From a virus: 64,000 nucleotides of DNA. Positions 21,454 to 62,663 of the stretch are shown one piece after another. The notes beneath the pieces are model-generated. The model did no database searches. It saw nothing but the letters and a program-made list of their open reading frames with translations, and was not told the DNA's origin. Positions within the stretch are counted from its first letter, which is position 1. Each line of letters begins with the position of its first letter. The position numbers and the translations under genes were made by a program. The stretch spans positions 3,023 to 67,022 of IMG/VR virus record IMGVR_UViG_3300019888_000004. The stretch is one strand, 5' to 3'.

Positions 21454-21541
21454 GTGAAGCAGACGAAAAATCTTCCGGGGACTGGCCAAGCGCGCGCTTG
21501 TCTGCTTCACATCTTTCATCCGTGCGCTGGTTGGTCCTCGG
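21454..21541 (+). ncRNA. A-B-A'-B' structured leader (c4/CI-like), copy 1
   Basis: GTGAAGCAGAC/GTCTGCTTCAC and CCGGGGACTGGCCA/TGGTTGGTCCTCGG interleaved. Confidence 0.6.
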
Positions 21542-21559
21542 TTTTCCAAACAACAAACA

Positions 21560-21967
21560 ATGAACGCAACTGAAATCATCACCTCGAAACCCGTGAACGT
21601 GTGGCAGATCGGGCCCGATGGCTGCGGGGCATACGACTTCAACTACGATGGAGATAAAGTCGTATTGCTCAAGAAATCCCAGCGGGCTTTCCTGCTAACA
21701 GACGAATGGTGTGGTGGAAACGTCGAAGGGGAATGCTACCGCTGCCATTTTTCGGAAGTCGGCTACAGCGATGCGGTGGAAGCCGTCCTGTCTGCCTCCC
21801 GGGGCAAAGAGCCGAGCCTCGGCGGCAATGGTGGAAGCCGCTACGGAAATGCACCGGTGTGGCTCAAGCAGGCCGTAAAACGCGCCGACGTGCGCGACGC
21901 GCTGGATGATAAAGAACTCACAGCCGCAATCGATGAAGAACAGGTGGGAAGCGAGGTGCTGCCGTGA
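21560..21967 (+). CDS. hypothetical protein
   Basis: 135-aa ORF following the structured leader. Confidence 0.55.
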   Translation: MNATEIITSKPVNVWQIGPDGCGAYDFNYDGDKVVLLKKSQRAFLLTDEWCGGNVEGECYRCHFSEVGYSDAVEAVLSASRGKEPSLGGNGGSRYGNAPVWLKQAVKRADVRDALDDKELTAAIDEEQVGSEVLP

Positions 21968-22071
21968 ACACATGGGCCTGAACACGCGCCGCCGGCCTCC
22001 GCGAACTGGGGTATTTCTCGCCAGCGCACTTTTCGCTAGCGCACGTCCCGGAACAGGGGTAAATACGTCCT

Positions 22072-22446
22072 GTGTCAGCCTGCCCACACTGCGGCCAGGC
22101 CATTGAGCCGGCGCCAATACTCGCCTACAACCCGGGACCGCCAGCGTTACAGATTCACACTGAATGGGTTACGGTCAGATTGCATGTGAGATGCGCCAAT
22201 GCTATCGCAAGCCTTCACCGCCGCGCTCGGTGCGCTGCGAGCACCCGCCCAATTCTCGCACCACCGCCAGAAGCCGCCCAAGCCGCGTTTCTCGCAATCC
22301 GCCGCCGCCTGAATAGCCACACTGGAGCTACGCTGTCCGTGCCAGACAACACAGAGGTTTACTGGACCAAACGCCCGCCGGTCACGCCTACCATCCGCCG
22401 CTGGATCGTCACCGCCGCTGACCTGCTCAATATCCCGTGGGAGTGA
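22072..22446 (+). CDS. hypothetical protein (CPHCG)
   Basis: ORF track; Zn-ribbon-like start. Confidence 0.35.
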   Translation: MSACPHCGQAIEPAPILAYNPGPPALQIHTEWVTVRLHVRCANAIASLHRRARCAASTRPILAPPPEAAQAAFLAIRRRLNSHTGATLSVPDNTEVYWTKRPPVTPTIRRWIVTAADLLNIPWE

Positions 22447-23210
22447 GCCGTCTTGTGTGTGTCACACCGCTACGGGTTGTGGTTCAGGAAGTGAATTTTT
22501 CGGGTTATGGCCACAAGTCACGAACGCCCTGATTTCATTTGTGTTTATGACGCGGCATGTGGGCATAACTGACATTGTTCTTCATTATGGTCAGTAGTTG
22601 ACCCGACGACGCACTTTCCCGGCCACGAGGCAAAACCGGGCCGTCATCTCCGCGCTGATCGCCGACAGGCCGGGCCGGAGTCGTCCAGCCCGCCCCGAGG
22701 TGGCCGCCGACCATCGAGCCATCCAGCCCGACCGCGCCACGAGCCGACACCCACCCCGGTCGAGCGGGGCTACTGGGGTAGTGGCGTCCAGAACGGCGTA
22801 TAGACCAACCCCGGACTCGCGGACTCTTTTTGAAAATTTTACGCACCGACCACAAGAAGGTTCATCTGGCGATGCTGGTCAATTTTGGCGGCTTTCGTAA
22901 GGTTCTCTTTCGGTTTCAGAGGTTGGAGGTTTGAGAAGTGGGCGCATTGCTGGAATTGAAGCGGGTCGGCCAGATTTTTCAGAACTCAGCTTTCGGACTC
23001 AGCGAATGATTTTCCGGCCTTGCGCGGCTGGTGCGTTCCTGTCGCGGGCTGAGGTTCGGCCGCGTTTGGGGCAACGGGTCCGCTTTGGGTGGAGTGACGG
23101 TACTCGAGCAAGAGGGGAGCCGCGTGGCTGGAGTACTCGAGCAAATGGACACGATGCGATGGATAGTCCTGCTGTAGGCGGGAGGGAGGAGGCGGGGTGG
23201 TTCGGTGGGG

Positions 23211-23343
23211 GTGGAAGTCCGTGGAGGTTGAGCGAACCGTGGAAGGCGGTAAAAACCAGCGTGGCTCCCTAAGAAGTGTATGTCGGGTGTCAAGCCTCAC
23301 ACTTCTCCACATGACTCCACAAAACTCCACAAAAGGCTTGACT
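23211..23343 (+). repeat. 10-bp-phased CTCCAC/GTGGAR repeats upstream of a TTGACT promoter
   Basis: CTCCACA x3 at 23305, 23315 and 23325; inverted GTGGAA/GTGGAG at 23211 and 23221. Confidence 0.6.
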
Positions 23344-23371
23344 GGATTTGGGTGGTTTGGGAGCCTGCGGA

Positions 23372-23917
23372 ATGAACAACTGGTCGCCGCTTTTCGGGAA
23401 GATTGTGGACTCGTCGCTGTGGCGCGAGGACGACATGGTGGTGAAGGTGTTTCTGACGATGCTGGCGAAAAAGGATGCCGACAACGTGGTTCGGGCCAGC
23501 GCGTTTATGCTTGGGGAATGGGCGAAGAAGTCTGAGGAGGATGTGCTCAAAGCCTTGAAGGTTCTATCCGCGCCGGACACCAAGCGGATCGAGCCGCAGC
23601 CGTTCGAAGGCCGCCGGATCGGAAAGGTGGATGATGGCTGGCTGATTCTCAACGCCCAGTATTACCGGGGGCTGGTCAGCAAGTATGTTCAGAAGGATTA
23701 CAACCGGGAGTGGATGGAGAAATACCGGGAGGAACTGAAGAAGAAAACGCCGGAGCAGATTGCCTACATCAAGAGAATCAGGGAGCTTGGGAAGAAGATT
23801 CGGCACTGGCACAAGCTGTCGAAGGATGAGGTTGGGAACAACGGGAATCCGACGGCGAAGGAGATTCAGGACGCCGAGAATGAATATCGGGCGGCAACGA
23901 TGAAGGAGAAAGAATGA
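23372..23917 (+). CDS. putative replication initiator / replisome-organizer-like wHTH protein
   Basis: WSPLFGKIVDSSLW...VFLTMLA...GRRI..VDDGWLILN pattern. Confidence 0.6.
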   Translation: MNNWSPLFGKIVDSSLWREDDMVVKVFLTMLAKKDADNVVRASAFMLGEWAKKSEEDVLKALKVLSAPDTKRIEPQPFEGRRIGKVDDGWLILNAQYYRGLVSKYVQKDYNREWMEKYREELKKKTPEQIAYIKRIRELGKKIRHWHKLSKDEVGNNGNPTAKEIQDAENEYRAATMKEKE

Positions 23918-24813
23918 CAAGCTCACTGACAATCTTCACCCGCGCGGCGGCAATGCTGGCCGAAGCGGACACCATCCAAAAGGCGAAGGAGTTGAAGGAT
24001 TTGGCGCTCACGGCGAAGGATTGGGCGCGGCGAAAGGGAATGGGCGAGGAAGCGATTCAGCATGCCCGGAGTTATGCGTTTGAGGCGGAGCGGAAGATGG
24101 GGCAGATGCTATCGGTTATGCCGAAGAACAAGGGGGCGATTCGAGGTAAGACTGGTATCCAAGGCAAACCACTCCCGGATAAATTGCCGACGCTTCAGTC
24201 TTTCGGTTTGAACAAACTCTCAAGTTCAAAGGCGCAGGCGTTGGCCGCGCTTCCGGTGGAAGTCTTCGAGAAAGTGAAGGCTGGAATTCTGTCTCGAAAT
24301 GGAAAATCGGTTCACGTCTCCCACAACTCCGGCGAGAACGAGTGGTACACGCCGTCCGAGTTCGTGGAAGCGGCGCGGGCGGCGATGGGTGGTATTGACT
24401 GCGACCCGGCGTCGTCGGCGATTGCGAATAAGACGGTTAAGGCGCGAAAATTTTTCGACAAGGAGTGCGACGGATTGAAACAGGCATGGACAGGGCGGGT
24501 GTTCTTGAATCCGCCGTATGCGCAACCGCTCGTGGCACAGTTCGCGAACGCGGTTGCCGACAAGTTCAACCTCGGCGAGATCGAACATGCTTGCGTCCTG
24601 GTGAACAACGCGACGGAGACGGCGTGGTTTGTGAAGATCGCGCAGGTGGCTTCGGCGATTTGCTTCCCAACTACGCGCGTCCGGTTTCTTGATCCAACTG
24701 GCGCGGCGGCTGGAGCGCCGTTGCAGGGGCAGGCCGTGCTTTACCTCGGGCGGCGCCGGGCGGCGTTCTGTGCTGCGTTCAAACCGTTTGGAATTTGCGT
24801 GCATGTCGTTTGA
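23914..24813 (+). CDS. phage DNA N6-adenine methyltransferase
   Basis: EWYTP, DPAS, FLNPPY. Confidence 0.85.
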   Translation: MTSSLTIFTRAAAMLAEADTIQKAKELKDLALTAKDWARRKGMGEEAIQHARSYAFEAERKMGQMLSVMPKNKGAIRGKTGIQGKPLPDKLPTLQSFGLNKLSSSKAQALAALPVEVFEKVKAGILSRNGKSVHVSHNSGENEWYTPSEFVEAARAAMGGIDCDPASSAIANKTVKARKFFDKECDGLKQAWTGRVFLNPPYAQPLVAQFANAVADKFNLGEIEHACVLVNNATETAWFVKIAQVASAICFPTTRVRFLDPTGAAAGAPLQGQAVLYLGRRRAAFCAAFKPFGICVHVV

Positions 24814-25375
24814 AAAACAACTGGCAGTCGGACTTTACGGCGAGGATTTGATAAGCCGATGGCTCATCCGGCGCGGAATGCAAGTGTTGCCAGCGTACCA
24901 GATTCAGGAGAACCACGGCAAAGGCCCGCGCCTGTTCGGACAATACGGACAGTTGATTTGCCCCGATCTTCTGGTGTTCAAAGCCGAGCGGGTGATTTGG
25001 ATTGAGGCCAAGCTGAAATCGGCATTCACTTGGCATCGCATGTCGGCGAGTTGGCAGACGGGAATTGATCGGCGGCACTGGCGCGATTATGTGGAAGTCG
25101 AGCGCGTTACACCGTTCCCCGTCTGGCTCTTTTTCCTCCACGCTCCCGGACACGCGGCCAAGGACACGCCGGAAGGATTGAAAAGCCCCAGCGGACTTTA
25201 CGGTAACAGCGTAAAGTTGCTGGTTGAATGCGTGCATCACGAGCACGATGGGCACGGGCCAAGCGGGATGGTTTACTGGCGCGAATCGGCCTTGAAAAAG
25301 CTGGCTGATTGGAGTGCGTTTCTGCCAGACAAGATTGCCGCCGAGGGCCTGCCCGGAAATGGAGAGGCGCGATGA
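24803..25375 (+). CDS. PD-(D/E)xK nuclease-fold protein
   Basis: PDLLVF...WIEAK. Confidence 0.65.
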   Translation: MSFEKQLAVGLYGEDLISRWLIRRGMQVLPAYQIQENHGKGPRLFGQYGQLICPDLLVFKAERVIWIEAKLKSAFTWHRMSASWQTGIDRRHWRDYVEVERVTPFPVWLFFLHAPGHAAKDTPEGLKSPSGLYGNSVKLLVECVHHEHDGHGPSGMVYWRESALKKLADWSAFLPDKIAAEGLPGNGEAR

Positions 25376-25631
25376 CTCAACCGATATGAAGAAGGTTGCG
25401 GCGGCGCTGTTCAGGATACTGTGTAGGATACGGCACAAACGCCACTGGCATGAACAGGTCTATACGGATAGGGTGCGCTACTATCAGCGGACTGAGTGCT
25501 GGAAGTGTGGGGCGGTGCAATCGGCATATCGCGTATGCCGCAACCAAAAGCATCCGCATGAAACGCGCGCTTCCGAAGTTCGCGCGGAGGCTGGCTTGTC
25601 CGCGAAGGCCGAAGGACTGCCGGACAACTGA
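25372..25631 (+). CDS. hypothetical protein
   Basis: GGAGAGG RBS, ATGA coupling, CWKC. Confidence 0.4.
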
Positions 25632-25639
25632 GAGGACCC

Positions 25640-25810
25640 ATGCCCGACGAATCGCACAACCCGGTAGCATCCGACCAACTGCGGCAGGAAATCCGAGAAG
25701 TTATCCGCCGCTATGGCCAGGAGAGCGACGTGACGGTGTATCAGGCAATCGGAGTGCTGGAGATCGTGAAATTCGACCTTGTGGACATGCTGGAAAAGGC
25801 GCGGGAGTAA
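25640..25810 (+). CDS. hypothetical protein (56 aa)
   Basis: GAGAGGA RBS; TVYQAIGVLEIVKFDL. Confidence 0.55.
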   Translation: MPDESHNPVASDQLRQEIREVIRRYGQESDVTVYQAIGVLEIVKFDLVDMLEKARE

Positions 25811-25844
25811 TGTTCAGCTGGGGGTTTCGGGTTTCCGGTTTCGC

Positions 25845-26123
25845 TCATGGTTCAGTCACTACGTATTCGATTTGCTTTTCAGGTCCGGCGTGCGCGCTCA
25901 CATCCCAGGCGTGCTCGAAGGTTGTGACCCACGCTTCGGATTTGTCTGGTGTGTAGCCTTGCGCGTTTTCTCGCCACCACATTTCCCACTGAGCCGACCA
26001 GATTCGAACATTCTTGCCGAGCACGTGGCGTTTCAGGGCGGGATAGCGTTTGAGTTTTTCGAGACGGATTCGAGAGTTCAGCCGTGGCTTAACAACCGCG
26101 AGAGTGCGGGGTTCTCTTGTCAT
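25845..26123 (-). CDS. hypothetical protein
   Basis: VRIWSAQWEMWWRENAQGYT; GGAG RBS. Confidence 0.55.
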   Translation of the reverse strand: MTREPRTLAVVKPRLNSRIRLEKLKRYPALKRHVLGKNVRIWSAQWEMWWRENAQGYTPDKSEAWVTTFEHAWDVSAHAGPEKQIEYVVTEP

Positions 26124-26322
26124 GGCTCTCCATTCCTTTCCGAGTCTCGCTGCTTGCGTGCGCACGCGGAACAAACCAACCCCACAGTCCACGCGCCGCA
26201 AGCGCACTTGTGGACGATGCCGCCGGCCTGGGATTTGGCGATGGCGCGGCGGGTGTCCTTAGCGTCGTCCACGAGGTGCTTCAATCGGACGGCGAGTTGA
26301 TTTTCCAATTCGTCGTTCATTG

Positions 26323-26613
26323 TCAAAACGGTTCTCCAACGGGCGACGGCAACGGCCTGAAATCAATCACGTCGTCAGCTTTTCGCCCATTGCAGACATC
26401 ACATAAAATTTGCAAATTATCGTGCTGAAAATGCTGCTTCCGGTAAAACAGCATTCGCTGGTCGGTGCTGCCGCGGTGATGATCGTCGCCAGTCGGTTCG
26501 ATGCAGTCGAAGGTAAGGTTGTCAGTCGCCCCACACTTCGCGCAGACCGGCCCAAGGATCGCGAGCAGGTCGGCCCGCGCTTTTATCGCCCAGGATTTTG
26601 CGCGCGCGCTCAT
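26323..26613 (-). CDS. HNH endonuclease (McrA-like)
   Basis: CAKCG...LTFD...NLQILCDVCN. Confidence 0.7.
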   Translation of the reverse strand: MSARAKSWAIKARADLLAILGPVCAKCGATDNLTFDCIEPTGDDHHRGSTDQRMLFYRKQHFQHDNLQILCDVCNGRKADDVIDFRPLPSPVGEPF

Positions 26614-26782
26614 GGTTAAAATGGTTCTCGGCATTTCTCGCAGATAAACTTTCCGTCCTCCAGCGTGATCTGCCGCACGTTGAACAACTTCCCGCACTCG
26701 TCGCATCGCTCCAGCGTGGCGTCCACGGGAAGACCGATCAGTGGGATGGAATAGTTGCCGACGTGAACGATGGCGTGAGCAC

Positions 26783-27190
26783 TCATTTTACAACTTCTCG
26801 AAACTCGTCAAGCGAAGTGACTACTGCGGCCTTGGCTCCGAGCTTCACCAGCCATGCGAGTGTGGCGGCTTGTTCTGTTGTCAGTTTTTGGCCCGGCCTT
26901 TTCACCTCTACAAACCACACGCGCCCACCATCTCCGACGATTATGAAGTCGGGTTCGCCAATCCGGCGTCGCGTTCTGTGGGCCATTGAGCCATGAAAGA
27001 ATAGCCAGCCCTTGCTCCGGCAGAATTCCATCATTGCCTCATGCAGATCGGATTCGGATTCAGCCCGCCGTCCGCGGTGTGCGCTTTCAACGCCAGCGGG
27101 CCGATCCGAAGTCCCCTCGTCAGGCTGCCGCACGCGATTCGCGTTCAGGCGGCGAACCATTTCGTCAAATTGTAATCGGGTGACAGTCAT
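26783..27190 (-). CDS. VRR-NUC nuclease / resolvase
   Basis: ESDL...GEPDF...FVEVKRPGQKLTTEQ. Confidence 0.85.
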   Translation of the reverse strand: MTVTRLQFDEMVRRLNANRVRQPDEGTSDRPAGVESAHRGRRAESESDLHEAMMEFCRSKGWLFFHGSMAHRTRRRIGEPDFIIVGDGGRVWFVEVKRPGQKLTTEQAATLAWLVKLGAKAAVVTSLDEFREVVK

Positions 27191-27193
27191 GGG

Positions 27194-27379
27194 TTATCCG
27201 TGCGTTCTCACAAACTCATCAGCATCCGCCTGCTCGCGGAACGTGGCGAGCCATTCGATGCCGCCGTCCCAGCTTGGATTTCCGTTTGGCCAGGCGATTT
27301 CAAAGTTGCCGGTGTCTGGGTTGTGCCAGATCACGCATCTGGGGTAGCGCGGCTTGGCTATCGGGATTTCGTCAGTCAT
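27194..27379 (-). CDS. hypothetical protein
   Basis: packed in the operon. Confidence 0.45.
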   Translation of the reverse strand: MTDEIPIAKPRYPRCVIWHNPDTGNFEIAWPNGNPSWDGGIEWLATFREQADADEFVRTHG

Positions 27380-27975
27380 TTGGACTCTTTTGCGATGGTC
27401 AGCCGAGCGGCTTCTCTAGCAGCGTGGAGATGCGGCCAATTTTTCCCGGTTCTAATGCTGCGGATCGCGCTTTCAAAGACACCGTATTTTTTGGCCAGTT
27501 CTTTGGGCGTCGTTGAGCAATTTATTATTTCCAAAGCTTGAGCCTCTGTGAATTTGTGGTTTGGTCTTCCCTCTCCGGGATTCGACCTTCCTTTTGCCAC
27601 CATGTCTTGTGAGTTGTCCTTGGCGGTTCCAACAAAAAGATGGTCAGGGTTTACACATGGACGATTGTCGCAGCGGTGGCAAACAAACAAACCGGCTGGG
27701 ATTTGACCGACAAAAAGCTCGTAGGAAACTCTGTGGGCTGGCCTGGTTTTTGTGCCCCGCACTCCAATCGTTCCGTATCCGCGCGTTGTTCCGCCGGTCC
27801 AAATCCAGCACGTTGAAGTTTTGTCAACCTTAACCTTCGCCAGAAATCGTCCCAGGATTGGCTGTGTTCGGGTTTTGAAATAACAGATTCTTGAGCAGTA
27901 CTTTCTTGCTTCAAACCTGGATCGTTCCGGCTTGAATGGCCGTCCGCAAACTTCACAAAGTTTTTCCGCCATCAT
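27376..27975 (-). CDS. HNH homing endonuclease
   Basis: CWIWTG...AHRVSY...VCHRCDNRPCVNPDHL; C-terminal HTH. Confidence 0.9.
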   Translation of the reverse strand: MMAEKLCEVCGRPFKPERSRFEARKYCSRICYFKTRTQPILGRFLAKVKVDKTSTCWIWTGGTTRGYGTIGVRGTKTRPAHRVSYELFVGQIPAGLFVCHRCDNRPCVNPDHLFVGTAKDNSQDMVAKGRSNPGEGRPNHKFTEAQALEIINCSTTPKELAKKYGVFESAIRSIRTGKNWPHLHAAREAARLTIAKESK

Positions 27976-28119
27976 TGCTGCACCTTTTGAGGTGTCCCGG
28001 CCCGCGTGTGCAGCGTTCGCTGGAAGGCGAGGCAAGCCCACTGAAGGACTTCGCGAGCCGAGACAGATTTGATTTACGCTGCACACAGGAACGATGCCAG
28101 TTTTATCCGCATCCGTCAA
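27976..28119 (-). ncRNA. promoter plus A-B-A'-B'-A leader, copy 2
   Basis: TTGACG-N17-CATCGT; GTGTGCAGCGT/ACGCTGCACAC; GTCTCGGCTCGC/GCGGGCCGGGAC; GTGCAGC repeated before ATG. Confidence 0.65.
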
Positions 28120-29721: not shown

Positions 29722-29846
29722 TGCCGTGTTGCGCTTCGTGCCGCGCGCCGTCAGCCCCCTGGCCGCGAACCTGGCTGCCCGCCGCCGCCACTTGTCGCGG
29801 TTGATCCGGCGCCTGACCAGCGGGCCGACTTTTCGGAGGTTGGTTC

Positions 29847-30410: not shown

Positions 30411-30411
30411 T

Positions 30412-31215
30412 TTACTTGATCTCTCCACGCTCGCGGAGTTCGGCGACGATTCGATCGCTGGTTTGCTTCGCTGTGGAAGGCATTCCAAAGTTGCGAGGGT
30501 TTTCGGCAGTATTTCTCCGAGGGTTTTGAATTCTTGGTCCATTTTGTCCTCCGTATTCCTCCCAGTGTCGTTTCCAGTTCGCGAGCGCAGCGGGCCACAG
30601 TTTCATCGGATTCTTGCCAACTCTCCACCCGTTCGCTTGGTAGTAGTCGTAAAACTTGTCACCCTCTGACTCCGGCAAAGCAATTTCAGCGCATTGGAGT
30701 TTTACGGCTTCAATCGTCGGCTTTGAGAATCCTTTCCCAGAGGGGTTGGGCGGAAGCGCGGCATTTCCTTCTTCCGTTCCTTCCATTCCTTCCATTCCCT
30801 TCCCTCCTTGGGCACCTGACTGACAGGACGATGGCACCCTGCTGGCACCCTGCTGGCACCCAACTGCATCATTCGTAATTTCAGACACTTCCAGCCAATC
30901 CGTGTTTTTTTCTAGGTAATCAAGAGAGACTGTCAGCCAACTGACAGGCGCACGGCACTTGACTGACAGGCTGCTGACAGTGTGTGGCGTTCCGTTGTCT
31001 CGGATAAGCGTACCGCGAGGACTGCATTTTGAGGCGATTTCGACCATCAAGACGAATGCGGCAAAAATCTCGGCGCCGCGCGGGTGCGCCATAATGTTAC
31101 TGAAATTTTCCCCATCGTGTTTGTTTGGCATGGCAACCCAGGAGAGAACCTTGACCGTTCTGGAGCGGTTGTTTTCATAGAGAGCGTCCCAGTTGCGAAT
31201 CTTGTAAAGTTTCAT
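30412..31215 (-). CDS. phage replication initiator (O-like)
   Basis: YKIRNW N-terminus; internal iterons; FSKPT...FYDYYQANGWRVGKNPMKLW C-terminal domain; adjacent to the DnaC-like gene. Confidence 0.8.
   Translation of the reverse strand: MKLYKIRNWDALYENNRSRTVKVLSWVAMPNKHDGENFSNIMAHPRGAEIFAAFVLMVEIASKCSPRGTLIRDNGTPHTVSSLSVKCRAPVSWLTVSLDYLEKNTDWLEVSEITNDAVGCQQGASRVPSSCQSGAQGGKGMEGMEGTEEGNAALPPNPSGKGFSKPTIEAVKLQCAEIALPESEGDKFYDYYQANGWRVGKNPMKLWPAALANWKRHWEEYGGQNGPRIQNPRRNTAENPRNFGMPSTAKQTSDRIVAELRERGEIK
30768..30862 (-). repeat. intragenic iterons / probable origin
   Basis: GGCACC at 30811, 30833, 30844 and 30855 (11-bp phase) next to a CCTTCCATT purine-asymmetric tract. Confidence 0.65.
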
Positions 31216-31428
31216 GTGGGGATGTCGTCGTCGCTGACGCAATCGAACTCGGACTTGCAAGTCGGGCAGAAGAAATGCGCTGTGTGAAGTTCGGCATGTT
31301 CCCACTCGTAACCGAATCCAGCTTCTTGAACGGCGCGGCGCATCATTTCTTGAAACGTCCGCGCCTTCGGCCCTTCCCTGCCGCACTTTTCGCAGACAAG
31401 GCAATCTCCAACTGGTGATAATTTCATG
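31212..31428 (-). CDS. Zn-finger protein
   Basis: CEKCG...CPTC. Confidence 0.55.
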
Positions 31429-31439
31429 CGGCAAAACAA

Positions 31440-31630
31440 TTACCCCGTTGCGGAGTCCGGCCCGGAATGGGTAGTAAGGGTCAGCGTTTCCGCTGAACTT
31501 AACTGTTCCGAACCCCGCAACGGGGCATTGCTCAAACATAACCTTCTACCCGTTAGAGCCAGTTTCCGGGGCTGGCTTGTCAGTATTTCTACCGACGACC
31601 GATTGAATCATCGGCGGGAATTATCCGCAA
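31440..31630 (-). ncRNA. promoter plus A-B-A'-B' leader, copy 3
   Basis: TTGCGG-N17-TTCAAT; GGGTAGAAGG/CCTTACTACCC; CCCCGTTGCGGGGTTCGG/CCGGACTCCGCAACGGGG. Confidence 0.6.
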
Positions 31631-32244: not shown

Positions 32245-32367
32245 AAACGGATCATCGTTTGTGTTTAGTGGTGGGTGTCCGGCCATCAACCGGCGCCCGC
32301 TACGACTTTCGAGATTCCTCCGCGTTGTCGCAAGAAAAATCTGCGGATTTCGTTTCCGTCAAGGTTT

Positions 32368-33215: not shown

Positions 33216-33221
33216 TTCGCA

Positions 33222-33290
33222 ATTAAACCACGGGCGGATTGGCGGGGCAAGAAAAAAGTTGTTGACATTATTCGGCAACACGGCATGATG
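33222..33290. promoter_or_regulatory. divergent back-to-back promoters
   Basis: minus strand TTGCCC-N17-TTTAAT; plus strand TTGACA at 33262 then CATGAT; gene orientation switches here. Confidence 0.55.
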
Positions 33291-33297
33291 CTTGGAA

Positions 33298-34539: not shown

Positions 34540-34686
34540 TTGCACCGCAAAACGAATCAGGCCATCATCCGAACGGCCTTAGAACGGCTGAAAAAGCAGA
34601 TGCAAAACGATACTCTCCAGCGCCCTTCACGGTTGCCGCAAATCTGCGCGGGTTCTACTTCACGGTCGGGTGCTGGTTTTGCGTTT
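34540..34686 (+). ncRNA. promoter plus A-B-A'-B' leader, copy 4 (weaker)
   Basis: TTGCAC-N17-CATCAT; GCAGAT/ATCTGC; CCAGCGCCC/GGGTGCTGG. Confidence 0.45.
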
Positions 34687-37793: not shown

Positions 37794-37940
37794 TTGACGG
37801 AATCCGGACTGTGAATATGATTCTGGCGTGCAACAGAACGTCAAATCTTCCTGCCGCTTCGGAACGGCTTACGCCTACACTCCGCTTTTTGCGGGACTGT
37901 TGCACACCGGGGCGGCGGGAACTTCAAAATGGTGCAACAG
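37794..37940 (+). ncRNA. promoter plus A-B-A'-B'-A leader, copy 5
   Basis: TTGACG-N16-TATGAT; GTGCAACAG (37828) / CTGTTGCAC (37897) / GTGCAACAG (37932); TTCCTGCCGCTTCGG/CCGGGGCGGCGGGAA. Confidence 0.7.
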
Positions 37941-38461
37941 TGAAAAAAATAGGAAGCAATCGGATTGGGATTATTTGTCCGCATTGTCATAAGAGCATAA
38001 CCCACTTCGTTTCCACCCACGGGAAATACAACACCCCGGAGTACCGAAGCTGGTTCGGGATGAAGTCCAGATGCCTTAACCCGAGAAATTACGGGTTCCG
38101 AAATTACGGCGGCAGAGGGATAACGGTCTGTAAAAAATGGATGGAGTTTGAGGGATTCATCGAGGACATGGGGTTAAAACCTTCTCCTGAATACAGCCTC
38201 GAAAGAATTGACAACAACGGCAATTATGAGGCTTCCAATTGTCGTTGGAGCAACAGGCAGGACCAAAACAACAACAGGAGAACAACCAGATTATTGTCCC
38301 ATGAAGGACAAACAAAAACACTGAGTCAATGGGCTGAACATATTGGAATTCACCAGTCTGGTTTGAGCAGAAGGTTGAATCAATTGGGATGGCCGTTGGC
38401 GCAGGCTCTTACAACTCCACCAAATTACGGAAACAGGCACCGCAATGGCAAAACCCATTGA
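37940..38461 (+). CDS. HNH homing endonuclease
   Basis: THG...EYRSW..MKSRC...YGGRGI...LERIDNNGNYEASNCRW. Confidence 0.9.
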   Translation: MKKIGSNRIGIICPHCHKSITHFVSTHGKYNTPEYRSWFGMKSRCLNPRNYGFRNYGGRGITVCKKWMEFEGFIEDMGLKPSPEYSLERIDNNGNYEASNCRWSNRQDQNNNRRTTRLLSHEGQTKTLSQWAEHIGIHQSGLSRRLNQLGWPLAQALTTPPNYGNRHRNGKTH

Positions 38462-54146: not shown

Positions 54147-54368
54147 ATGGCCACAATGAAAATCACCATTCCCAAAGATCACCCCGCGCACAAGGGCTTG
54201 AAAGTCGGCGACATGGTTGCCATGCGCGGCCCGGTGACGGCGATGGGCGACGAAGGGGCGGAGTGCGAGATGGATGGATGTGAAAAGGAGAAAGCGCCGC
54301 CGAAGGGGAAGAAGAAAATGACGCCGCTCGATTATCTTCGCGCGAAGCGCCGGGGGGAAACAGATTGA
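54147..54368 (+). CDS. small basic protein upstream of the portal
   Basis: follows TTGCGC-N17-TATAAG. Confidence 0.55.
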   Translation: MATMKITIPKDHPAHKGLKVGDMVAMRGPVTAMGDEGAECEMDGCEKEKAPPKGKKKMTPLDYLRAKRRGETD

Positions 54369-57543: not shown

Positions 57544-57836
57544 TACAAATTGTTCAAGTGCCATTTTCAGACCCAGACCGTCAAACACTGCATGACTGGT
57601 TGAATGCGCCCGGACGACTGCTCTACCAGCGATTCCTTTCGAGCCAGGCCAGCGAGATGATGGCCACCGCCGCGAACGTCAGAGTGCGCAACGAGCAAGG
57701 CGACAAAGAAGATTCGGAACTGCTCACCGATCAGGCGCGTGTCATCGTGGCCGCGAACAAAGCGTTCGATCAAGTGTTGACGAAAGAGTTTAAGTTCTAT
57801 TGCGTGGAACTACGCCCTGAAACGCCCGCAAAATGA
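57540..57836 (+). CDS. hypothetical head-module protein
   Basis: AGGAGG RBS, coupled. Confidence 0.55.
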   Translation: MIQIVQVPFSDPDRQTLHDWLNAPGRLLYQRFLSSQASEMMATAANVRVRNEQGDKEDSELLTDQARVIVAANKAFDQVLTKEFKFYCVELRPETPAK

Positions 57837-57874
57837 TGATTGACCTTGCAGATACGTTGAGTCCATCGTGTCCA

Positions 57875-58996
57875 ATGATTCGCGCCGTGCGCATTTCTCT
57901 TTCCGAAGCGACCGCTTCCAAACAGCGCCGTCTTCAATCCGTTCTGAGGGAACTTCGCTCGGCTGCTAATTTCTACGCACGGTCAATCTGGAAAGAAAAA
58001 GGTAAATTGGATGCGGAGACACATGGGCGGTACAAAAACGGATCGCTTAACTATAGCCAGCGAAATGCGGCTCTGAAATTCGCTCTGGATTCAGTCATTT
58101 GCGCAAAGAGCTTTGGGAAACAATTAAATTGTCGCGTAAGATGCCCGGTATTCAGGAATGCGCTTCGCCTCTCAAAACTTGTTTGCAGAATAGAACAAGG
58201 TAAGGGCTGTTTCGATTATGTGATGAAGGTTACTTCAATGAGGCTGCGTGAACCCTTGGTTCTTCCATTCAAGTCGCACGAACGATTGAACTACTGGTTG
58301 GCGAAGGGTGGAAAGATTCTTGATGGAGCAATCATAAGCTCCACGATGGCGGCATGGATTTACGTCGAACTCCCGGACGAGCCTGCCAAAACCGAAGGGG
58401 ACATCGTTGGATTGGACACCGGCTATAAAAAGTTGCTCACCGACAGTAATGGCAACTTTTATGGGAGAGACATCGGCGACATTGTGCAGAAAATTCGGCG
58501 CAAGAAACCAGGATCAATCGCCAAGCGCAAGGCGCGGGTGGAGCGCCAAGATTACGTCAATTTCGTCTGCCGCCGTTTGCCGTGGCAGACCGTCAAAACT
58601 TTCGTCCTCGAAGACCTGACCGGAATGAAAGTCGGTAAAGGTAATCGAGGGAAACGAAACCGCAAGCTGCTCGCTCCCTGGAGCTATCGGCAGGTGAGAA
58701 CAAGGCTGGAACAACTCGCGCCGGAGAACCGTGTTCGTCTGGAATTCGTCAGCCCTAAATTCACTTCCCGAATATGCCCCTCGTGTGGGTGGGAGAGCGC
58801 GAAAAACAGGGTGGGAGAGAAGTTCTGCTGTCTGCGATGCAACTACACAGCCGACGCCGACTTTGTCGGAGCGCGGAACATTCTCGCAAAGTTCACTACC
58901 ACTGGAAACTGTCCGGAGCGTACGGTCCCGGTCGGAGATTGCGGAGAACTACTGTGCGGGAAGAAGAAGGAAGAACCTTATGCCCAAAACGCTTGA
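57875..58996 (+). CDS. tnpB: TnpB-family RNA-guided nuclease (no TnpA nearby)
   Basis: VGLDTG, VLEDL, TSRICPSCG...C..C, ADFVGARNI; leaderless TTGACC-N18-CATCGT promoter. Confidence 0.88.
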   Translation: MIRAVRISLSEATASKQRRLQSVLRELRSAANFYARSIWKEKGKLDAETHGRYKNGSLNYSQRNAALKFALDSVICAKSFGKQLNCRVRCPVFRNALRLSKLVCRIEQGKGCFDYVMKVTSMRLREPLVLPFKSHERLNYWLAKGGKILDGAIISSTMAAWIYVELPDEPAKTEGDIVGLDTGYKKLLTDSNGNFYGRDIGDIVQKIRRKKPGSIAKRKARVERQDYVNFVCRRLPWQTVKTFVLEDLTGMKVGKGNRGKRNRKLLAPWSYRQVRTRLEQLAPENRVRLEFVSPKFTSRICPSCGWESAKNRVGEKFCCLRCNYTADADFVGARNILAKFTTTGNCPERTVPVGDCGELLCGKKKEEPYAQNA

Positions 58997-60506
58997 TGTT
59001 TCATTCACGGAAACGAAAAGAGGGAAGAAGAAGGATGAGCCAACCGTTCCTGCAACCGTAGCGGTTCAGCCTGAGCCAACGCCGCCCGCGCCCACCGCCG
59101 AGGAACTCGAAGCGCGCCGGAACACTCTGCACAAATCGCTGTTTGGCTCTGATCTTCCCAAAGAGCCTGCCGCTCCAGTTGTTGCCGTCGCGCCGGTCGA
59201 GCCACCGCCCGAACCGCCAGCCGCCCCTGTCGTGGCTGCGCCCGCCGCCCCTGCGCCTGCGCCTGCGCCCGAACCAGTCCAACCCGCGCCAGCATCAAGA
59301 ACGGAGATCGAAACCGCCGCCCGCGCCGCCGCCAGGATGGTGATGGATGAAAAGCCAGCGGCACCGGCGCAACCTCCACCACCGACCGCGCAACCAGCGT
59401 TCGAGTTGTCGCCCGAGGACAAGGCCGACTACGAAGTCGTACAGTTTTTGGAACGCACCGAGCCAGACAAGCACGCCGGGGCAGGCCAGAGATTTCTCGA
59501 CTACACCAAGGCGCACTACGCTTATCAGGCCGAGTGGTCGGCCAACAACAGCAACGCGGAGTTTGATCCCAATTCATCCGAGCACGAGGCATGGTACAAG
59601 CGCCATGATCCCGGCCTTGACGCCGACGAGATTGATCGCGGGCGCATGACGATGCTGGCCGAACGCGCCGCGCTCAAGATCGTTCAACCGCAGATGGAGG
59701 CGATGAGCCGCGAGAAAACCGAACGCGAACAGCGCGAGGCGATGAATAAGGCCATGCCGACCGTGGTGGGGTATGTGCAGCAGCGCATCGTGGAATTTGT
59801 CAGCGCCGTGGATGAGACGCTGGCCGCGCACATCAAGGACGACAAAGGCAAGCCGCTGCTCACCGAGGAAGCCATCGCCAAAATTGACGCCGCCGATTCG
59901 ATTGCCAAGCGCGTGCTCGATGACGTGGTGCGTTATCAACTTGAGCCGATGGTGATGGCCCTGGAAATGACTACCGTGGAGAAGGGCGGCTTCAAGTTGA
60001 ATCCAGCAGTCAACCCGGCTCATCGTCAGATTGCCGATTACATTGACAAGGCCGAACGCGAAATGCTGGCCGCTCCAGCCGAGGTCCGCATTCAGAACGG
60101 GAAAGAGTTTGCGACCATCGCGCAGCTTCAGCGCATGAAGCAATCCATCGAATCCGGCGGCGGCACGCGAGAGGGTAAGGAGCAGCAAATTGCCCAGGTC
60201 AACGACCGTTATTACACGCTGGGCGTGGATGACATCGAAGCGATTATCGTCGAAGAATGCGCTCAGACCGCCCGCACGCGCATTGATTTCGACGATGGAG
60301 TGGCGAAACGCAAATATCCACAGGCCAACGGCGCTGGACAACCGGCAGCGCAATCGGCGCACGCCGCACCAGCAGTGCCGGCAAGTGGGAAGCCCAATTC
60401 GCCCACCATCAGTTCAGCCGGCGATACGGTAGTGCAACGGGACCGAAATGCGCCGACGATAAAAAAAGCAGGAGAACAGATGGAAAGCATGTTGTTCAAG
60501 CGGTAA
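58980..60506 (+). CDS. putative scaffolding protein
   Basis: P/A-rich N-terminus, acidic coiled coil, directly before the capsid gene. Confidence 0.6.
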   Translation: MPKTLDVSFTETKRGKKKDEPTVPATVAVQPEPTPPAPTAEELEARRNTLHKSLFGSDLPKEPAAPVVAVAPVEPPPEPPAAPVVAAPAAPAPAPAPEPVQPAPASRTEIETAARAAARMVMDEKPAAPAQPPPPTAQPAFELSPEDKADYEVVQFLERTEPDKHAGAGQRFLDYTKAHYAYQAEWSANNSNAEFDPNSSEHEAWYKRHDPGLDADEIDRGRMTMLAERAALKIVQPQMEAMSREKTEREQREAMNKAMPTVVGYVQQRIVEFVSAVDETLAAHIKDDKGKPLLTEEAIAKIDAADSIAKRVLDDVVRYQLEPMVMALEMTTVEKGGFKLNPAVNPAHRQIADYIDKAEREMLAAPAEVRIQNGKEFATIAQLQRMKQSIESGGGTREGKEQQIAQVNDRYYTLGVDDIEAIIVEECAQTARTRIDFDDGVAKRKYPQANGAGQPAAQSAHAAPAVPASGKPNSPTISSAGDTVVQRDRNAPTIKKAGEQMESMLFKR

Positions 60507-60558
60507 CGACTCTTGAGCCGAAACCTGTCGCAATCAAGCACAGGACGGCACAAGAGCC

Positions 60559-62469
60559 ATGCTACGAAACCAAATCAACTACGGGCTTGCCGCCCTGTTC
60601 GTCGTCTCACTTCTCGTCGGTCTTTATCCGCTTGCCGTAGTCTGCTTCCTGATCGCCTGCGCGATCAACAAGCCGATCCCTGGCCAGCTTAACATCTCGC
60701 CGTTCCAGGAATTGCCGTGTTCAACCGTCGTGCGCAACACCTACGACACGCACGGCACGATCACGCGCGCCAGTATCAACATGCTGACGCCAACGCAACT
60801 GGAGGCGTTGTTCTCGACGAACGGCCTTTTCAACGAGATGGACGACTGGTTTCGGACGAGCTTCGAGATGAAGGCGTGCGGAACACGGGTCAACAGCATG
60901 TATGACTGGCTCATGTCGTCCATGCGTTCCGACCTGAAAGGGTTGCTGTCGTACGAGAAGCTGGACCGCGGCCCGTCGTTGCTCAAACCGTTCATTATGG
61001 CCCGCCAGGATTCGGTGGTGAACATTGACACCTACTGGGTCGTCGTCAACGGCGTCGCCAAATCCGGTTACACGCCCGACACGCCGTCAACCGCTGTGGG
61101 GACAGTTGCCGCTGGCCCGCTTACGACCGCTGACGTGGCGCTCGGCGACGCGGGCGACCGCATCGTGCGCGTTGTGACCCGCTACGGCGTTGACCTCGAC
61201 GCCAAATGGTTTCTCACCCGGGACCGAATCCAGATTTTCGGCTTGTCCGGCGGCACGACTCTGCGCGGCCAATGGAAGGTCATGGCCTCGCAAGCCGACA
61301 CGTCGCTTTCCTACATTGACGTGCTGCTCAAGTCCGAGAACGCCGGTAGTATCACGCCGTTCGCCGCCGCGCCCACCGCCGGCGTCATCCTCGCGGGCAC
61401 GAACAATGTGAACGATTTCGAGGTGTTCTGCCTGAACCGGCCCGTCATCAACCCGCGCAAGCACGTTCCGTTCTGGTACAAGACCGACCGCCGCGCCCGC
61501 CGCGTGGACAGCGAGTATCGCAAGGTGATCGCCCGGCTCGCCGAAGGAAACCAGTACTTCGAGCAGTTCCAGAATCTTCCGCTCTCCGAATACAACCGGC
61601 AGGACGAAGAACTGTATCAGCGCCGATTCGTGAACGACTTCTTCTTCTCCAAAAAGATCAGCGCCAATCAAACGATGGCCAACTGGCAGTCGCTCGAACA
61701 GATTACGACCGTCACCGGTGCCACAGTTGATCCCGGACTGGGCGGCAAATTGATCGCTTACCGCGCCAACCCGGTCGGCATCATCGAACAGCTTCAAGCC
61801 TGCGGTCGCGTCAAGGACCTGCAAAATCACGCGCTCAACTGGTACGAGTTCCTCGACGAGAACTACCGCATCGCCCGCGCTCGCAAGAGCCAGGGGCGCA
61901 CGGTGGATACGCTCGACTGGTTCACCGACCAGCGCACGGCGGCCAACATCGAAACCGCCTTCTTCGCTTATCTCAAAGCCGAATACGGCGACATCGTGCG
62001 CGTCAACATCGAGACTGGATCGAACGAACTCGGCTTCTCGTGGAAAATCTTTTCCAACTTGAAGTACCCGGTCGGACTCAAGATGGCCATTGTCACCGCC
62101 GATTTCTTCGATGACATGGTGAATGCGTTCGACGCCGAATCAGTCGGCAGCGCCGGTCGCGTCCTGTGGTGCCTCGACATCGGAAAGCCCGGCCCCAAGG
62201 GCGGCACGATCTATCCGGGCATGATCCAGTCCAACGCCAAGACCACCACGCTGGGCGACCTACAGACACTCAGCCGGATTGACGCGACGTTCGCCTGCGT
62301 GATGGAGCACATCACGGAGGAAGTGAAGATGGCGAGCAACACTGTCACTTATTTATGCGAATGTCCGGGGCAAAGTTTGGCCATAAACGGAATCGCGGAT
62401 GCTGTGCCTTCGACCCTTGGTCGCAGTAATGATTTTTATAGCACCCCAAGTTACTCAGACCTTTACTGA
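60559..62469 (+). CDS. putative major capsid protein with hydrophobic N-terminal segment
   Basis: position after the scaffold, strong codon bias, followed by a terminator; GIIEQL...DWFTD pattern. Confidence 0.6.
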   Translation: MLRNQINYGLAALFVVSLLVGLYPLAVVCFLIACAINKPIPGQLNISPFQELPCSTVVRNTYDTHGTITRASINMLTPTQLEALFSTNGLFNEMDDWFRTSFEMKACGTRVNSMYDWLMSSMRSDLKGLLSYEKLDRGPSLLKPFIMARQDSVVNIDTYWVVVNGVAKSGYTPDTPSTAVGTVAAGPLTTADVALGDAGDRIVRVVTRYGVDLDAKWFLTRDRIQIFGLSGGTTLRGQWKVMASQADTSLSYIDVLLKSENAGSITPFAAAPTAGVILAGTNNVNDFEVFCLNRPVINPRKHVPFWYKTDRRARRVDSEYRKVIARLAEGNQYFEQFQNLPLSEYNRQDEELYQRRFVNDFFFSKKISANQTMANWQSLEQITTVTGATVDPGLGGKLIAYRANPVGIIEQLQACGRVKDLQNHALNWYEFLDENYRIARARKSQGRTVDTLDWFTDQRTAANIETAFFAYLKAEYGDIVRVNIETGSNELGFSWKIFSNLKYPVGLKMAIVTADFFDDMVNAFDAESVGSAGRVLWCLDIGKPGPKGGTIYPGMIQSNAKTTTLGDLQTLSRIDATFACVMEHITEEVKMASNTVTYLCECPGQSLAINGIADAVPSTLGRSNDFYSTPSYSDLY

Positions 62470-62492
62470 TCAACGACTTACGTAGATTGAAT

Positions 62493-62522
62493 CGCCCCGG
62501 AAAGTTCCGGGGCTTTTTTGTT
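62493..62522 (+). terminator. intrinsic terminator
   Basis: GCCCCGGAA-AG-TTCCGGGGC-TTTTTT. Confidence 0.85.
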
Positions 62523-62663
62523 GACGCAAAACCTCTTTGAGTCTTTGCTATTGGCGTGACTCGGATGCAGGAAACTGAAACCTCAAAGCCGCTGTTTGGC
62601 GTAGCTTCCATACTACTGCCTTCGAGTCACATTGTTGGCAACCAGACGGCGGCTTTGAGGTTT
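62521..62663 (+). ncRNA. promoter plus A-B-A'-B' leader, copy 6
   Basis: TTGACG at 62521; GTGACTCGGA/TTCGAGTCAC; AAACCTCAAAGCCGCTGTTTGG/CCAGACGGCGGCTTTGAGGTTT. Confidence 0.65.

What the first reader, a model, noticed from the sequence alone, without database searches (positions are those of the whole stretch)
21454..62663. Six orthogonal A-B-A'-B'(-A) RNA switches, four gating HNH endonucleases
Seen: at 21454(+), 28086(-), 31551(-), 34596(+), 37828(+) and 62556(+), a promoter is followed by interleaved complementary segments A/A' and B/B' with many G-U pairs. The topology is the same but the sequences differ. Four begin with GTG near the predicted +1, and in two (37932, 27976) A is repeated at the downstream start codon. 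Known: the P1/P7 c4 and P4 CI RNAs use this logic, a processed hairpin whose loop pairs with upstream and downstream targets. Inference: a family of self-immunity lock-and-key RNAs that travel with homing endonucleases and silence them except in a naive cell. This many distinct specificities in one genome looks undescribed.
Basis: partly seen in the sequence, partly recalled or inferred. Interest (0 to 1): 0.85.

Follow-up and report, generated by a model that had tools for sequence, protein, structure and literature searches.

The report
Knotted leader RNAs before phage nuclease genes
Five transcription units of this uncultured soil phage, three of them selfish DNA-cutting (HNH) genes, start with an RNA leader of about 90-110 bases whose two long helices cross each other; it most likely limits or times translation, and nothing supports the proposed trans-acting immunity RNA.

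Summary
At five of the six sites (21454+, 28086-, 31551-, 37828+, 62556+) a segment A pairs with A' inside the loop of a 14-22 bp hairpin B:B', which ends 12-18 nt before a start codon. Site 34596 is only a nested hairpin and is no better than shuffles. Three of the five genes are HNH endonucleases; the other two encode a 135-aa and a 71-aa protein of unknown family.

The helices differ in sequence between sites, cross-pair poorly, carry G-U pairs on the sense strand only, and match nothing in Rfam, including c4.

In an unrelated low-GC phage, the three best interleaved structures genome-wide are the leaders of its three HNH genes. Those three are paralogous, with covarying helices.

My reading: a cis-acting leader in which the transcript's 5' end and the hairpin either compete or form a knot next to the ribosome-binding site. 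At 37828, A' can alternatively pair across the start codon. The c4-like lock-and-key reading is not supported: B:B' is a stem rather than an antisense-target pair, no trans targets exist, and only one downstream copy of A is statistically sound.

Other agents of this scan reported the same design in at least eight other genomes. My literature searches found no description of it.

The parts
21454..21541 (+). Leader S1. A 21454-64, B 21475-95, A' 21500-10, B' 21522-41. Linkers of 10, 4 and 11 nt fit a classical H-type pseudoknot. B' ends 18 nt before ATG 21560.
   Evidence: z -3.70; 0 of 500
21560..21967 (+). 135-aa protein of no known family. First gene of the rightward operon. Not an HNH.
   Evidence: no family; 3 homologues at 55-85% identity
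27991..28119 (-). Leader S2. TTGACG hexamer 28119-14, A 28087-76, B 28065-52, A' 28016-05, B' 28004-27991. A' abuts B'. The stop codon of the upstream gene is at 28105-03.
   Evidence: z -2.25; 27 of 500
27977..27983 (-). S2 partial copy of A (7 nt) over the Shine-Dalgarno region, just before ATG 27975.
   Evidence: duplex -14.1 kcal/mol; 100 of 500 shuffles as good: not significant
27376..27975 (-). HNH endonuclease, 199 aa (HNH_3).
31442..31551 (-). Leader S3. A 31551-42 (10 pairs, one bulge), B 31526-09, A' 31477-67, B' 31459-42 (18 pairs, 3 of them G-U). B and B' are each also self-complementary.
   Evidence: z -4.88; 4 of 500
31212..31427 (-). 71-aa ORF with two CxxC pairs (zinc-ribbon-like) that follows S3. 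No family match.
34598..34686 (+). S4: nested hairpin ending at ATG 34687. Not an interleaved leader by my tests.
   Evidence: z -1.39; 21 of 200 shuffles as good; absent from the top scores
34687..35313 (+). HNH endonuclease, 208 aa (phrog_374 type).
37794..37921 (+). Leader S5. Promoter-like TTGACG-16-TATGAT at 37794-37821, A 37828-36 (7 nt after the -10 box), B 37848-62, A' 37897-905, B' 37907-21. There is 1 nt between A' and B'.
   Evidence: z -3.55; 26 of 500
37932..37941 (+). S5 second copy of A (10 nt) covering start codon GTG 37940. With A' and B:B' it could close a classical H-type pseudoknot over the start.
   Evidence: A':A2 -17.3 against A:A' -15.8 kcal/mol; 2 of 500
37940..38461 (+). 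HNH endonuclease, 173 aa (phrog_3377/374 type).
62494..62526 (+). Terminator-like hairpin plus T run (62494-62519), followed by a TTGACG hexamer (62521-26).
62556..62663 (+). Leader S6. A 62556-65, B 62578-99, A' 62621-30, B' 62642-63 (22 pairs). The Shine-Dalgarno sequence begins directly after B', and ATG 62676 lies 12 nt on.
   Evidence: z -7.32; 0 of 500
62676..63314 (+). HNH endonuclease, 212 aa (HNH_3 plus a helix-turn-helix).

Best explanation
These are cis-acting structured 5' leaders of separate transcription units. They act as portable expression-control modules, used above all by free-standing HNH homing-endonuclease genes.

Anatomy. Each leader has a strong hairpin (B:B', 14-22 bp) whose base sits 12-18 nt before the start codon. 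The first nucleotides of the leader (A), which lie at or near the predicted transcript start at S5, S2 and S6, pair with A' inside that hairpin's loop.

Folding. During transcription A:A' can form first. B:B' is the more stable helix and takes over, or closes a pseudoknot, once B' is made. The leader therefore has either two states or a knotted state next to the ribosome-binding site.

Effect (inferred, not shown). I infer that this keeps nuclease translation low, brief, or dependent on an intact 5' end. At S5, and weakly at S2, A' can instead pair with a second copy of A that covers the start codon. The 5' copy would then act as an anti-sequestrator: present and free means ON; lost, occupied or outcompeted means OFF.

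Shown here: the helices, their strand specificity, their placement, the folding order in a pseudoknot-free model, and the recurrence of the design in another phage.
For: - Five of six sites have both helices.
- The four best interleaved loci of 946 windows are S6, S2, S1 and S5. Three of them lie directly upstream of 3 of the 7 HNH genes in the window.
- Sense-strand RNA: 17 of 138 helix pairs are G-U, and B:B' is 7.8-13.1 kcal/mol more stable on the sense strand than on the antisense strand at 5 of 5 sites.
- B' ends 12-18 nt before the start codon at 5 of 5 sites.
- Prefix folding: at 5 of 5 sites the minimum-energy fold contains A:A' (8-11 pairs) when A' has just been made, and B:B' (12-22 pairs) once B' is complete. 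Fold I is -23.0 to -34.5 and fold II -37.2 to -52.7 kcal/mol.
- At S5 the two partners of A' are near-isoenergetic (-15.8 and -17.3), and the downstream pairing beats 498 of 500 shuffles.
- Independent replicate: in an unrelated 67,490-bp phage record of 37.5% G+C, the three best interleaved loci genome-wide are the leaders of its three phrog_374 HNH genes. Those leaders align at 75% column identity. They keep the extended -10 promoter and a U-rich linker motif, while A/A' and B/B' change together. Their 5' flank:loop pairing beat all 500 shuffles in 3 of 3.
- Known precedent: T-even homing endonucleases are held in check by RNA structures at the ribosome-binding site (PMC2988022, passages read).
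Against: - No RNA data exist for this phage, so the transcript starts, the fold and any effect on translation are all unshown (one search listed no RNA run).
- By score alone the structures are only moderately above dinucleotide shuffles. The conditional tests for S2 and S5 are about 0.05 each.
- In the pseudoknot-free fold the start region is largely open at S1 (19 of 20 nt unpaired) and half open at S5 and S2 (12 and 10 of 20). Simple sequestration therefore does not explain all sites.
- Only S5 has a statistically sound downstream copy of A.
- An orthologue of the S1 gene at 85% protein identity has a different leader with no interleaved structure. At that gene the structure is therefore dispensable or quickly replaced.
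- Among 86 upstream regions of HNH homologues from other viral contigs, only 2 score as high (6 of 1,761 control windows do). The design is sporadic, not a property of the HNH families.
- Consensus promoters were found by the scan at only 2 of 6 sites.
Confidence: 0.5

Rival explanations
1. RNA processing or stability element. The long B:B' helix (alone, or stacked on A:A') is an RNase III-type cleavage site that cuts the cassette mRNA out of operon transcripts. Alternatively, pairing of the 5'-terminal nucleotides protects the mRNA from 5'-end-dependent decay. In either case any effect on translation is secondary.
For: - B:B' is 14-22 bp and nearly perfect. At S2 and S5, A' and B' are contiguous, so the two helices could stack to about 24-26 bp.
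- A begins at or near the predicted 5' end at S5, S2 and S6 and in the three leaders of the other phage.
- S2, S3 and S5 lie inside operons.
- Phage T7 and lambda are known to use RNase III sites in leaders (recalled, not checked here).
Against: - No processing data exist.
- The constant 12-18 nt spacing to the start codon, and the copy of A over the S5 start codon, point to translation initiation rather than cleavage alone.
- S1 and S6 head their own units, and S6 follows a terminator, where no excision from an operon transcript is needed.
Confidence: 0.2
2. One reading: a c4/CI-like lock-and-key antisense RNA. The B:B' hairpin is processed into a small RNA of 60-90 nt, whose loop (A') represses its own nuclease mRNA in trans by pairing at the start codon, with A acting as an upstream decoy. 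Each cassette would have its own specificity.
For: - The B..B' span is 67-86 nt at the five sites, near the 77 nt I recall for c4.
- At S5 the loop element pairs with both an upstream copy and a copy over the start codon.
- The five A/A' sets cross-pair poorly.
- In another phage (locus L103), a 17-bp hairpin followed by a T run has a loop complementary both to an upstream copy and to the start region of an HNH gene.
Against: - No Rfam c4-type match at E <= 10.
- B/B' is an intramolecular stem, not a second antisense-target pair.
- Three of the five confirmed leaders have no downstream copy of A, and that of S2 is not significant.
- There are no other targets in the window.
- Two leaders precede genes that are not nucleases.
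- No small RNA has been shown.
Confidence: 0.08
3. Transcription attenuation. B:B' acts as a terminator or pause hairpin, and pairing of the 5' end with its loop (A:A') acts as an antiterminator, so the decision is made at the level of transcript elongation.
For: - At S1, B' is followed by four U residues.
- In locus L103 the hairpin is followed by seven T residues.
- Another agent of this scan read a similar family as pseudoknotted terminators (note e1-5947090; unchecked).
Against: S2, S3, S5 and S6 have no U tract after B'. The terminator scan lists none of the B:B' hairpins.
Confidence: 0.07
4. No RNA function. The repeats are chance, or are DNA-level remains, for example a small inserted element whose flanking duplication gives the two copies of A at S2 and S5.
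For: - Score statistics against shuffles are modest.
- S2 and S5 each carry a direct repeat (7 and 10 nt) flanking about 100 nt. Two other HNH genes of this phage have promoters that abut the ATG directly, which could be the uninterrupted state.
Against: - The G-U pairs are strand-specific.
- Placement before start codons is constant.
- A' inside the supposed insert is complementary to the flanking repeat and differs between S2 and S5 in step with it.
- The design recurs with covarying helices in an unrelated phage.
Confidence: 0.08

Closest known systems
RBS-sequestering hairpins of T-even phage homing endonuclease genes (I-TevI, I-TevII, I-TevIII, segB, Aeh1 mobE), and the hairpin just upstream of the RBS of seg43(25) in Aeromonas phage 25 (PMC2988022; passages read)
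   Same: A cis RNA structure sits at or next to the ribosome-binding site of a selfish nuclease gene that has its own promoter. The presumed purpose is to restrain translation. As at seg43(25), the hairpin here ends just before the Shine-Dalgarno sequence rather than covering it.
   Different: In T4 the promoter lies inside the inhibitory hairpin, so that only read-through transcripts are repressed. Here the whole structure lies downstream of the promoter-like site. There are also two crossing helices, and the 5' end of the leader is one of the pairing partners.
P1/P7 c4 antisense RNA with its a1b1 / a'b' / a2b2 elements (Rfam c4 families; the mechanism is recalled, not read here)
   Same: At S5 an element in a hairpin loop is complementary to one copy upstream and one copy at the translation start of the downstream gene, all on a single transcript.
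   Different: There is no covariance-model match. Only one loop element is involved. B/B' is the stem itself. The downstream genes are nucleases, not an antirepressor operon. Processing and trans action are not shown.
Delayed or sequential RNA folding controls: the MS2 maturation gene leader, the hok mRNA tac/fbi elements, and the alternative structures of lambda cIII mRNA (all recalled, not read here)
   Same: Long-range pairing involves the extreme 5' end. A fold made first during transcription is later replaced by a more stable one, so translation is possible only for a time or in one conformer.
   Different: There is no sequence or gene relationship. The interleaved topology and the association with homing endonucleases are particular to this case.
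Interleaved-helix leaders before homing endonuclease genes reported by other agents of this scan in at least eight other genomes (AI notes, unchecked)
   Same: Own promoter, a leader of about 55-115 nt with crossing, covarying helices next to the ribosome-binding site, upstream of HNH and other nuclease genes, and no Rfam match.
   Different: No sequence similarity to this window was found. I could not inspect those loci.

Membership tests
Rfam c4 antisense RNA families (C4, c4-2, c4-a1b1) | Match to the family covariance model | tested here: not met
   cmscan against all 4,227 Rfam 15 families. There were 0 matches at gathering score over the whole window. At E <= 10 there was no c4-type match in 21000-38500 (2 unrelated hits) or in 62300-62800 (11 unrelated hits, all upstream of the leader).
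Rfam c4 antisense RNA families (C4, c4-2, c4-a1b1) | Two loop elements (a', b'), each complementary to an upstream and a downstream target set at the RBS of the regulated gene (recalled definition) | tested here: not met
   B and B' pair with each other as the hairpin stem. Only A' has flanking partners, and a downstream partner is significant only at S5 (2 of 500; S2 100 of 500; none at S1, S3 or S6).
Rfam c4 antisense RNA families (C4, c4-2, c4-a1b1) | Processed stable small RNA acting in trans | not testable with these tools
   No RNA run was listed for this DNA. The laid runs are DNA contigs.
T4-type RBS-sequestering hairpin with nested promoter | Shine-Dalgarno sequence or start codon lies inside the stable hairpin | tested here: inconclusive
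   In the pseudoknot-free minimum-energy fold, 19, 10, 7, 12 and 6 of the 20 nt around the start are unpaired at S1, S2, S3, S5 and S6. B' itself ends 12-18 nt before the start.
T4-type RBS-sequestering hairpin with nested promoter | Promoter lies inside the 5' half of the inhibitory structure, so that its transcripts escape repression | tested here: not met
   Where a promoter-like site is seen (S5, and the TTGACG hexamers of S2 and S6), it lies wholly upstream of A.
H-type RNA pseudoknot (both helices formed at once) | Linker lengths able to span the helices | tested here: inconclusive
   S1 (linkers 10/4/11 nt) and S6 (12/21/11 nt) are compatible, and S3 (7-nt third linker) is tight. S2 and S5 have 0-1 nt between A' and B', which does not fit the classical geometry for A:A' plus B:B'. 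It does fit B:B' plus A':A2. No pseudoknot-aware energy model was available.
HNH homing endonuclease (the downstream genes) | Match to HNH profile families | tested here: met
   S2 and S6 match Pfam HNH_3 at 4.5e-13 and 1.2e-11. S2, S4, S5 and S6 match PHROG HNH families at 3e-35 to 2e-70. The S1 and S3 genes have no match.

The most novel reading that the evidence does not exclude
A widespread, uncatalogued class of portable promoter-plus-leader modules for selfish nuclease genes, in which the knot can be completed only by a free 5' end.

Both helices exceed one helical turn. Full A:A' pairing inside the closed B:B' loop therefore requires the short 5' terminus to thread through the loop. Only transcripts that start at the cassette's own promoter could reach the translatable fold. 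Read-through or 5'-trimmed RNAs would leave A' free to close over the start codon.

That would make the leader a 5'-end-sensing translational switch. Its helices can drift freely, which would explain why many orthogonal versions exist within one genome.
Probability: 0.2. Interest if true: 0.75.

Novelty: new variant of a known kind. Interest (0 to 1): 0.6.

Why it matters
Homing endonuclease genes must be expressed enough to spread, but not so much that they harm the phage carrying them. So far the only studied controls are the simple hairpins of T-even phages.

A recurrent crossing-helix leader would be a new and testable piece of RNA-based gene control. It appears here with five sequence versions in one soil phage and three more in an unrelated phage, and it is absent from Rfam. 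It could also serve as a source of compact, mutually orthogonal, context-insulated expression modules.

The result also corrects the more exciting reading: nothing here supports an RNA immunity system of the c4 type.

Tried and rejected
Relatives of the phage.
- Megablast of 27000-39000 against 50,697 phage records gave no match.
- The 636-aa protein next to S6 gave no relative in viral contigs.
- A profile of these proteins found one distant viral locus (L088, 40% identity) and three metagenome loci. Only L089 (85%) is close, and its leader is different.

Searches for homologous leaders by motif.
- A pattern from the shared S2/S5 motifs gave 7 hits in viral contigs, none with the helices. About that number is expected by chance, by my own estimate.
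- A pattern from the second phage's leaders found only that phage itself.

RNA evidence. No RNA holder was listed. Four DNA runs from 2 soil samples were laid.
- They show the same phage and, in one contig, a variant of S1 that keeps A' and the start of B' while 4 of 11 linker letters differ.
- The short islands at 28166-28204 and 37538-37575 seen in other contigs are G+C-rich coding sequence, and I do not interpret them.

Other checks.
- A leaderless reading frame starting at the 5' GTG: the frame is open across the leader at 4 of 4 GTG sites and is in frame with the HNH gene at S2 and S6. However, 45-55% of random positions are open that far, so this is not significant.
- tRNA-like or tmRNA elements: none in the window.
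- A general link between the HNH families and the structure: 2 of 86 upstream regions scored >=58 against 6 of 1,761 controls, with no enrichment at lower thresholds (3 of 86 against 3.9% at >=50).
- Literature: five searches found the T4 review (PMC2988022; passages read) but no description of crossing-helix leaders before HNH genes. In the main text of Weinberg et al. 2017 (PMC5737381), 'HNH', 'homing' and 'endonuclease' do not occur.

Full report
Setting.
The window is bases 3023-67022 of a 67,022-bp IMG/VR virus record. It has no near relative among 50,697 deposited phages, and the runs that hold it are soil metagenomes. It carries at least seven genes that match HNH endonuclease profiles: 27376-27975(-), 34687-35313, 36555-37175, 37940-38461, 38858-39382, 43439-44182 and 62676-63314.

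The observation.
I read all six sites. At each, a segment A is followed by B, then A' (complementary to A), then B' (complementary to B).
- B:B' is the dominant helix: 14-22 pairs, with duplex energies of -21.7 to -38.7 kcal/mol.
- A:A' has 9-13 pairs, at -12.7 to -21.1 kcal/mol.
- Ordinary folding, which sees only B:B', gives z-scores of -3.70 (S1), -2.25 (S2), -4.88 (S3), -3.55 (S5) and -7.32 (S6) against 200 shuffles each.
- S4 (34596) is different. Its two helices are nested into one hairpin that ends at the ATG, and 21 of 200 shuffles fold as well. I do not count it.

Is it more than chance?
- I scanned both strands for pairs of ungapped, crossing stems. Among 946 windows, S6, S2, S1 and S5 are the four best loci (77, 66, 63, 62); the next unrelated locus scores 56.
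- Against 25 dinucleotide shuffles of the whole window the excess is only moderate. Shuffle maxima were 54-68, and loci scoring >=58 averaged 1.3 per shuffle against five in the real sequence, with 1 of 25 shuffles reaching five.
- The position adds much more. Three of the four top loci lie directly upstream of three of the seven HNH genes. By my own arithmetic such upstream stretches make up under 1% of the two strands.
- A conditional test asks whether, given B:B', the 35 nt before B pair with the loop better than shuffled flanks do. The 500 shuffles reached the observed energy in 0, 27, 4, 26 and 0 cases for S1, S2, S3, S5 and S6.
- The pairing is an RNA property of the sense strand. Seventeen of 138 helix pairs are G-U, and each B:B' is 7.8-13.1 kcal/mol weaker when read on the opposite strand.

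- GTG opens A at S1, S2, S5 and S6.
- A consensus promoter lies directly before A only at S5. S1 has one 60-70 nt upstream. S2 and S6 share a TTGACG hexamer 27-29 nt before the GTG but have poor -10 boxes. S3 and S4 have none.
- A is repeated over the start codon at S5 (10 nt; 2 of 500 shuffles pair as well) and partly at S2 (7 nt; 100 of 500, not significant).
- The sequences are mutually distinct. No non-cognate A/A' pair is better than -10.5 kcal/mol, and no non-cognate B/B' pair is better than -17.2.
- S2 and S5 are visibly related to each other: same hexamer, a shared linker motif, and shared bases after B'. Yet they precede HNH genes of different families. The leader is therefore a module of its own.

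What follows the leaders.
- S2, S5 and S6 precede HNH genes.
- S1 precedes a 135-aa protein of no known family, at the head of the rightward operon.
- S3 precedes a 71-aa ORF with two CxxC pairs. The 375-aa ORF listed there looks non-coding over its first 108 codons. My reading is that it starts at the ATG at 31215.
- At all five sites B' ends 12-18 nt before the start codon.

Related sequences.
- No Rfam family matches the leaders, at gathering score or at E <= 10.
- I took the upstream regions of 86 HNH homologues from other viral contigs (80 kept of 548 relatives for the S5 protein, and 6 for the S2 protein). Two had an equally strong crossing structure, against 6 of 1,761 control windows.
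- One of the two belongs to an unrelated 67,490-bp phage record of 37.5% G+C. I fetched all of it. The three best crossing structures in that genome, on either strand, are the leaders of its three phrog_374 HNH genes.
- Those three leaders are paralogues (75% column identity). They share an extended -10 promoter placed 4-6 nt before A, a U-rich motif in the first linker, and a Shine-Dalgarno sequence after B'. A/A' and B/B' differ between copies but stay complementary. All three beat 500 of 500 shuffles in the conditional test.
- This is an independent replicate of both the architecture and its link to HNH genes.
- The second hit (locus L103, another phage) is a 17-bp hairpin with a T run. Its loop is complementary to a copy upstream and to a copy at the start codon.
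- Against conservation: the closest orthologue of the S1 gene that I could fetch (85% protein identity) has a different leader without the structure. One variant contig in a soil run keeps A' and the start of B' while 4 of 11 linker letters differ.

How it most likely works.
- Shown: two helices that cross; the stronger one abuts the ribosome-binding site; the weaker one uses the first bases of the leader.
- Prefix folding at 5 of 5 sites shows A:A' as the best fold when A' has just been transcribed. B:B' replaces it once B' exists (-23.0 to -34.5 against -37.2 to -52.7 kcal/mol). The model used cannot represent pseudoknots.
- The linkers at S1 and S6 would allow both helices at once as an H-type pseudoknot.
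- At S2 and S5, A' abuts B'. That does not suit A:A' plus B:B', but it suits B:B' plus A' paired to the downstream copy of A, which would bury the start codon. At S5 the two partners of A' are close in energy (-15.8 and -17.3).
- Inferred: a cis device that keeps translation of the nuclease low, brief, or dependent on an intact 5' end, in the spirit of the hairpins that restrain T-even homing endonucleases (PMC2988022). It may also insulate a mobile cassette from its surroundings.
- I put this at 0.5. Rivals are a processing or stability element (0.2), the c4-like trans RNA (0.08), attenuation (0.07), and no function or a DNA-level relic (0.08).

Comparison with the known.
- The leaders work somewhat like the T4-type hairpins, but they fail one defining feature: the promoter is not nested in the structure.
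- They resemble c4 only in that one loop element at S5 has an upstream and a downstream partner. They fail the covariance models and the two-element definition.
- Five literature searches found no description.
- Other agents of this scan reported the same design in at least eight other genomes. Those notes are unchecked and share no sequence with this window. One of them led me to test for a reading frame starting at the first base, which proved not significant.

Verdict.
This is a real, recurrent, uncatalogued leader architecture: a new variant of the known theme of RNA control of homing endonuclease genes. The claims of six switches and four gated HNH genes shrink to five leaders and three HNH genes. 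The immunity interpretation is not supported.

Noticed in passing
window 57833-58996 (+): 387-aa ORF matching PHROG transposase families (phrog_506 at 1.3e-22, phrog_12300 at 1.4e-20). It lies between large genes of unknown family. Another note of this scan calls it a stand-alone TnpB.
   Followed up: partly
window 2292-18140 (+): A single open reading frame of 5,282 codons, about a quarter of the window. I did not analyse it.
   Followed up: no
window 36520-36560 and 38823-38865 (+): Two further HNH genes (36555-37175 and 38858-39382) have promoter-like sites whose -10 box lies only a few bases before the ATG. Their transcripts would have almost no leader, in contrast to the structured leaders studied here.
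   Followed up: partly
window 30412-31539 (-): The first 108 codons of the listed 375-aa ORF look non-coding (arginine-rich, and covering leader S3). The gene probably starts at the ATG at 31215. The stop of the 71-aa zinc-ribbon-like ORF (31212-31427) overlaps that start.
   Followed up: partly
window 27376-28119(-), 34519-35313, 37646-38461, 62556-63314: The reading frame of each of the four HNH genes stays open 40-98 codons upstream of the likely start, through the whole leader. The 5' GTG of S2 and of S6 is in frame with the HNH gene. Background openness is 45-55% for 37-40 codons, so I treat this as unexplained rather than significant.
   Followed up: partly
L099 332-348, L100 (minus strand), L102 319-335 (record G001): The conserved U-rich motif in the first linker of the second phage's three leaders is complementary, with G-U pairs, to the start-codon region of each HNH gene. 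In two of the three, the minimum-energy fold extends B:B' over the Shine-Dalgarno sequence and the AUG.
   Followed up: partly
L103 400-501 (record G002): A 17-bp hairpin followed by seven T residues. Its loop is complementary both to a 9-nt copy upstream and to the same letters at the start codon of an HNH gene. This is the nearest thing to c4-like logic that I saw.
   Followed up: partly
window 21428-21444 (+): A GG-N10-GC element (sigma-54-like spacing) ends about 10 nt before A of S1, as another note of this scan says. If real, it would place the transcript start at A. I did not test it.
   Followed up: no
window 45654-47735, 47678-49063, 51041-54094, 54365-56854, 58731-60506, 60559-62469, 44146-45186: Seven large ORFs (346-1,017 aa) have no PHROG match at 1e-5. 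The phage lies far from described families.
   Followed up: no
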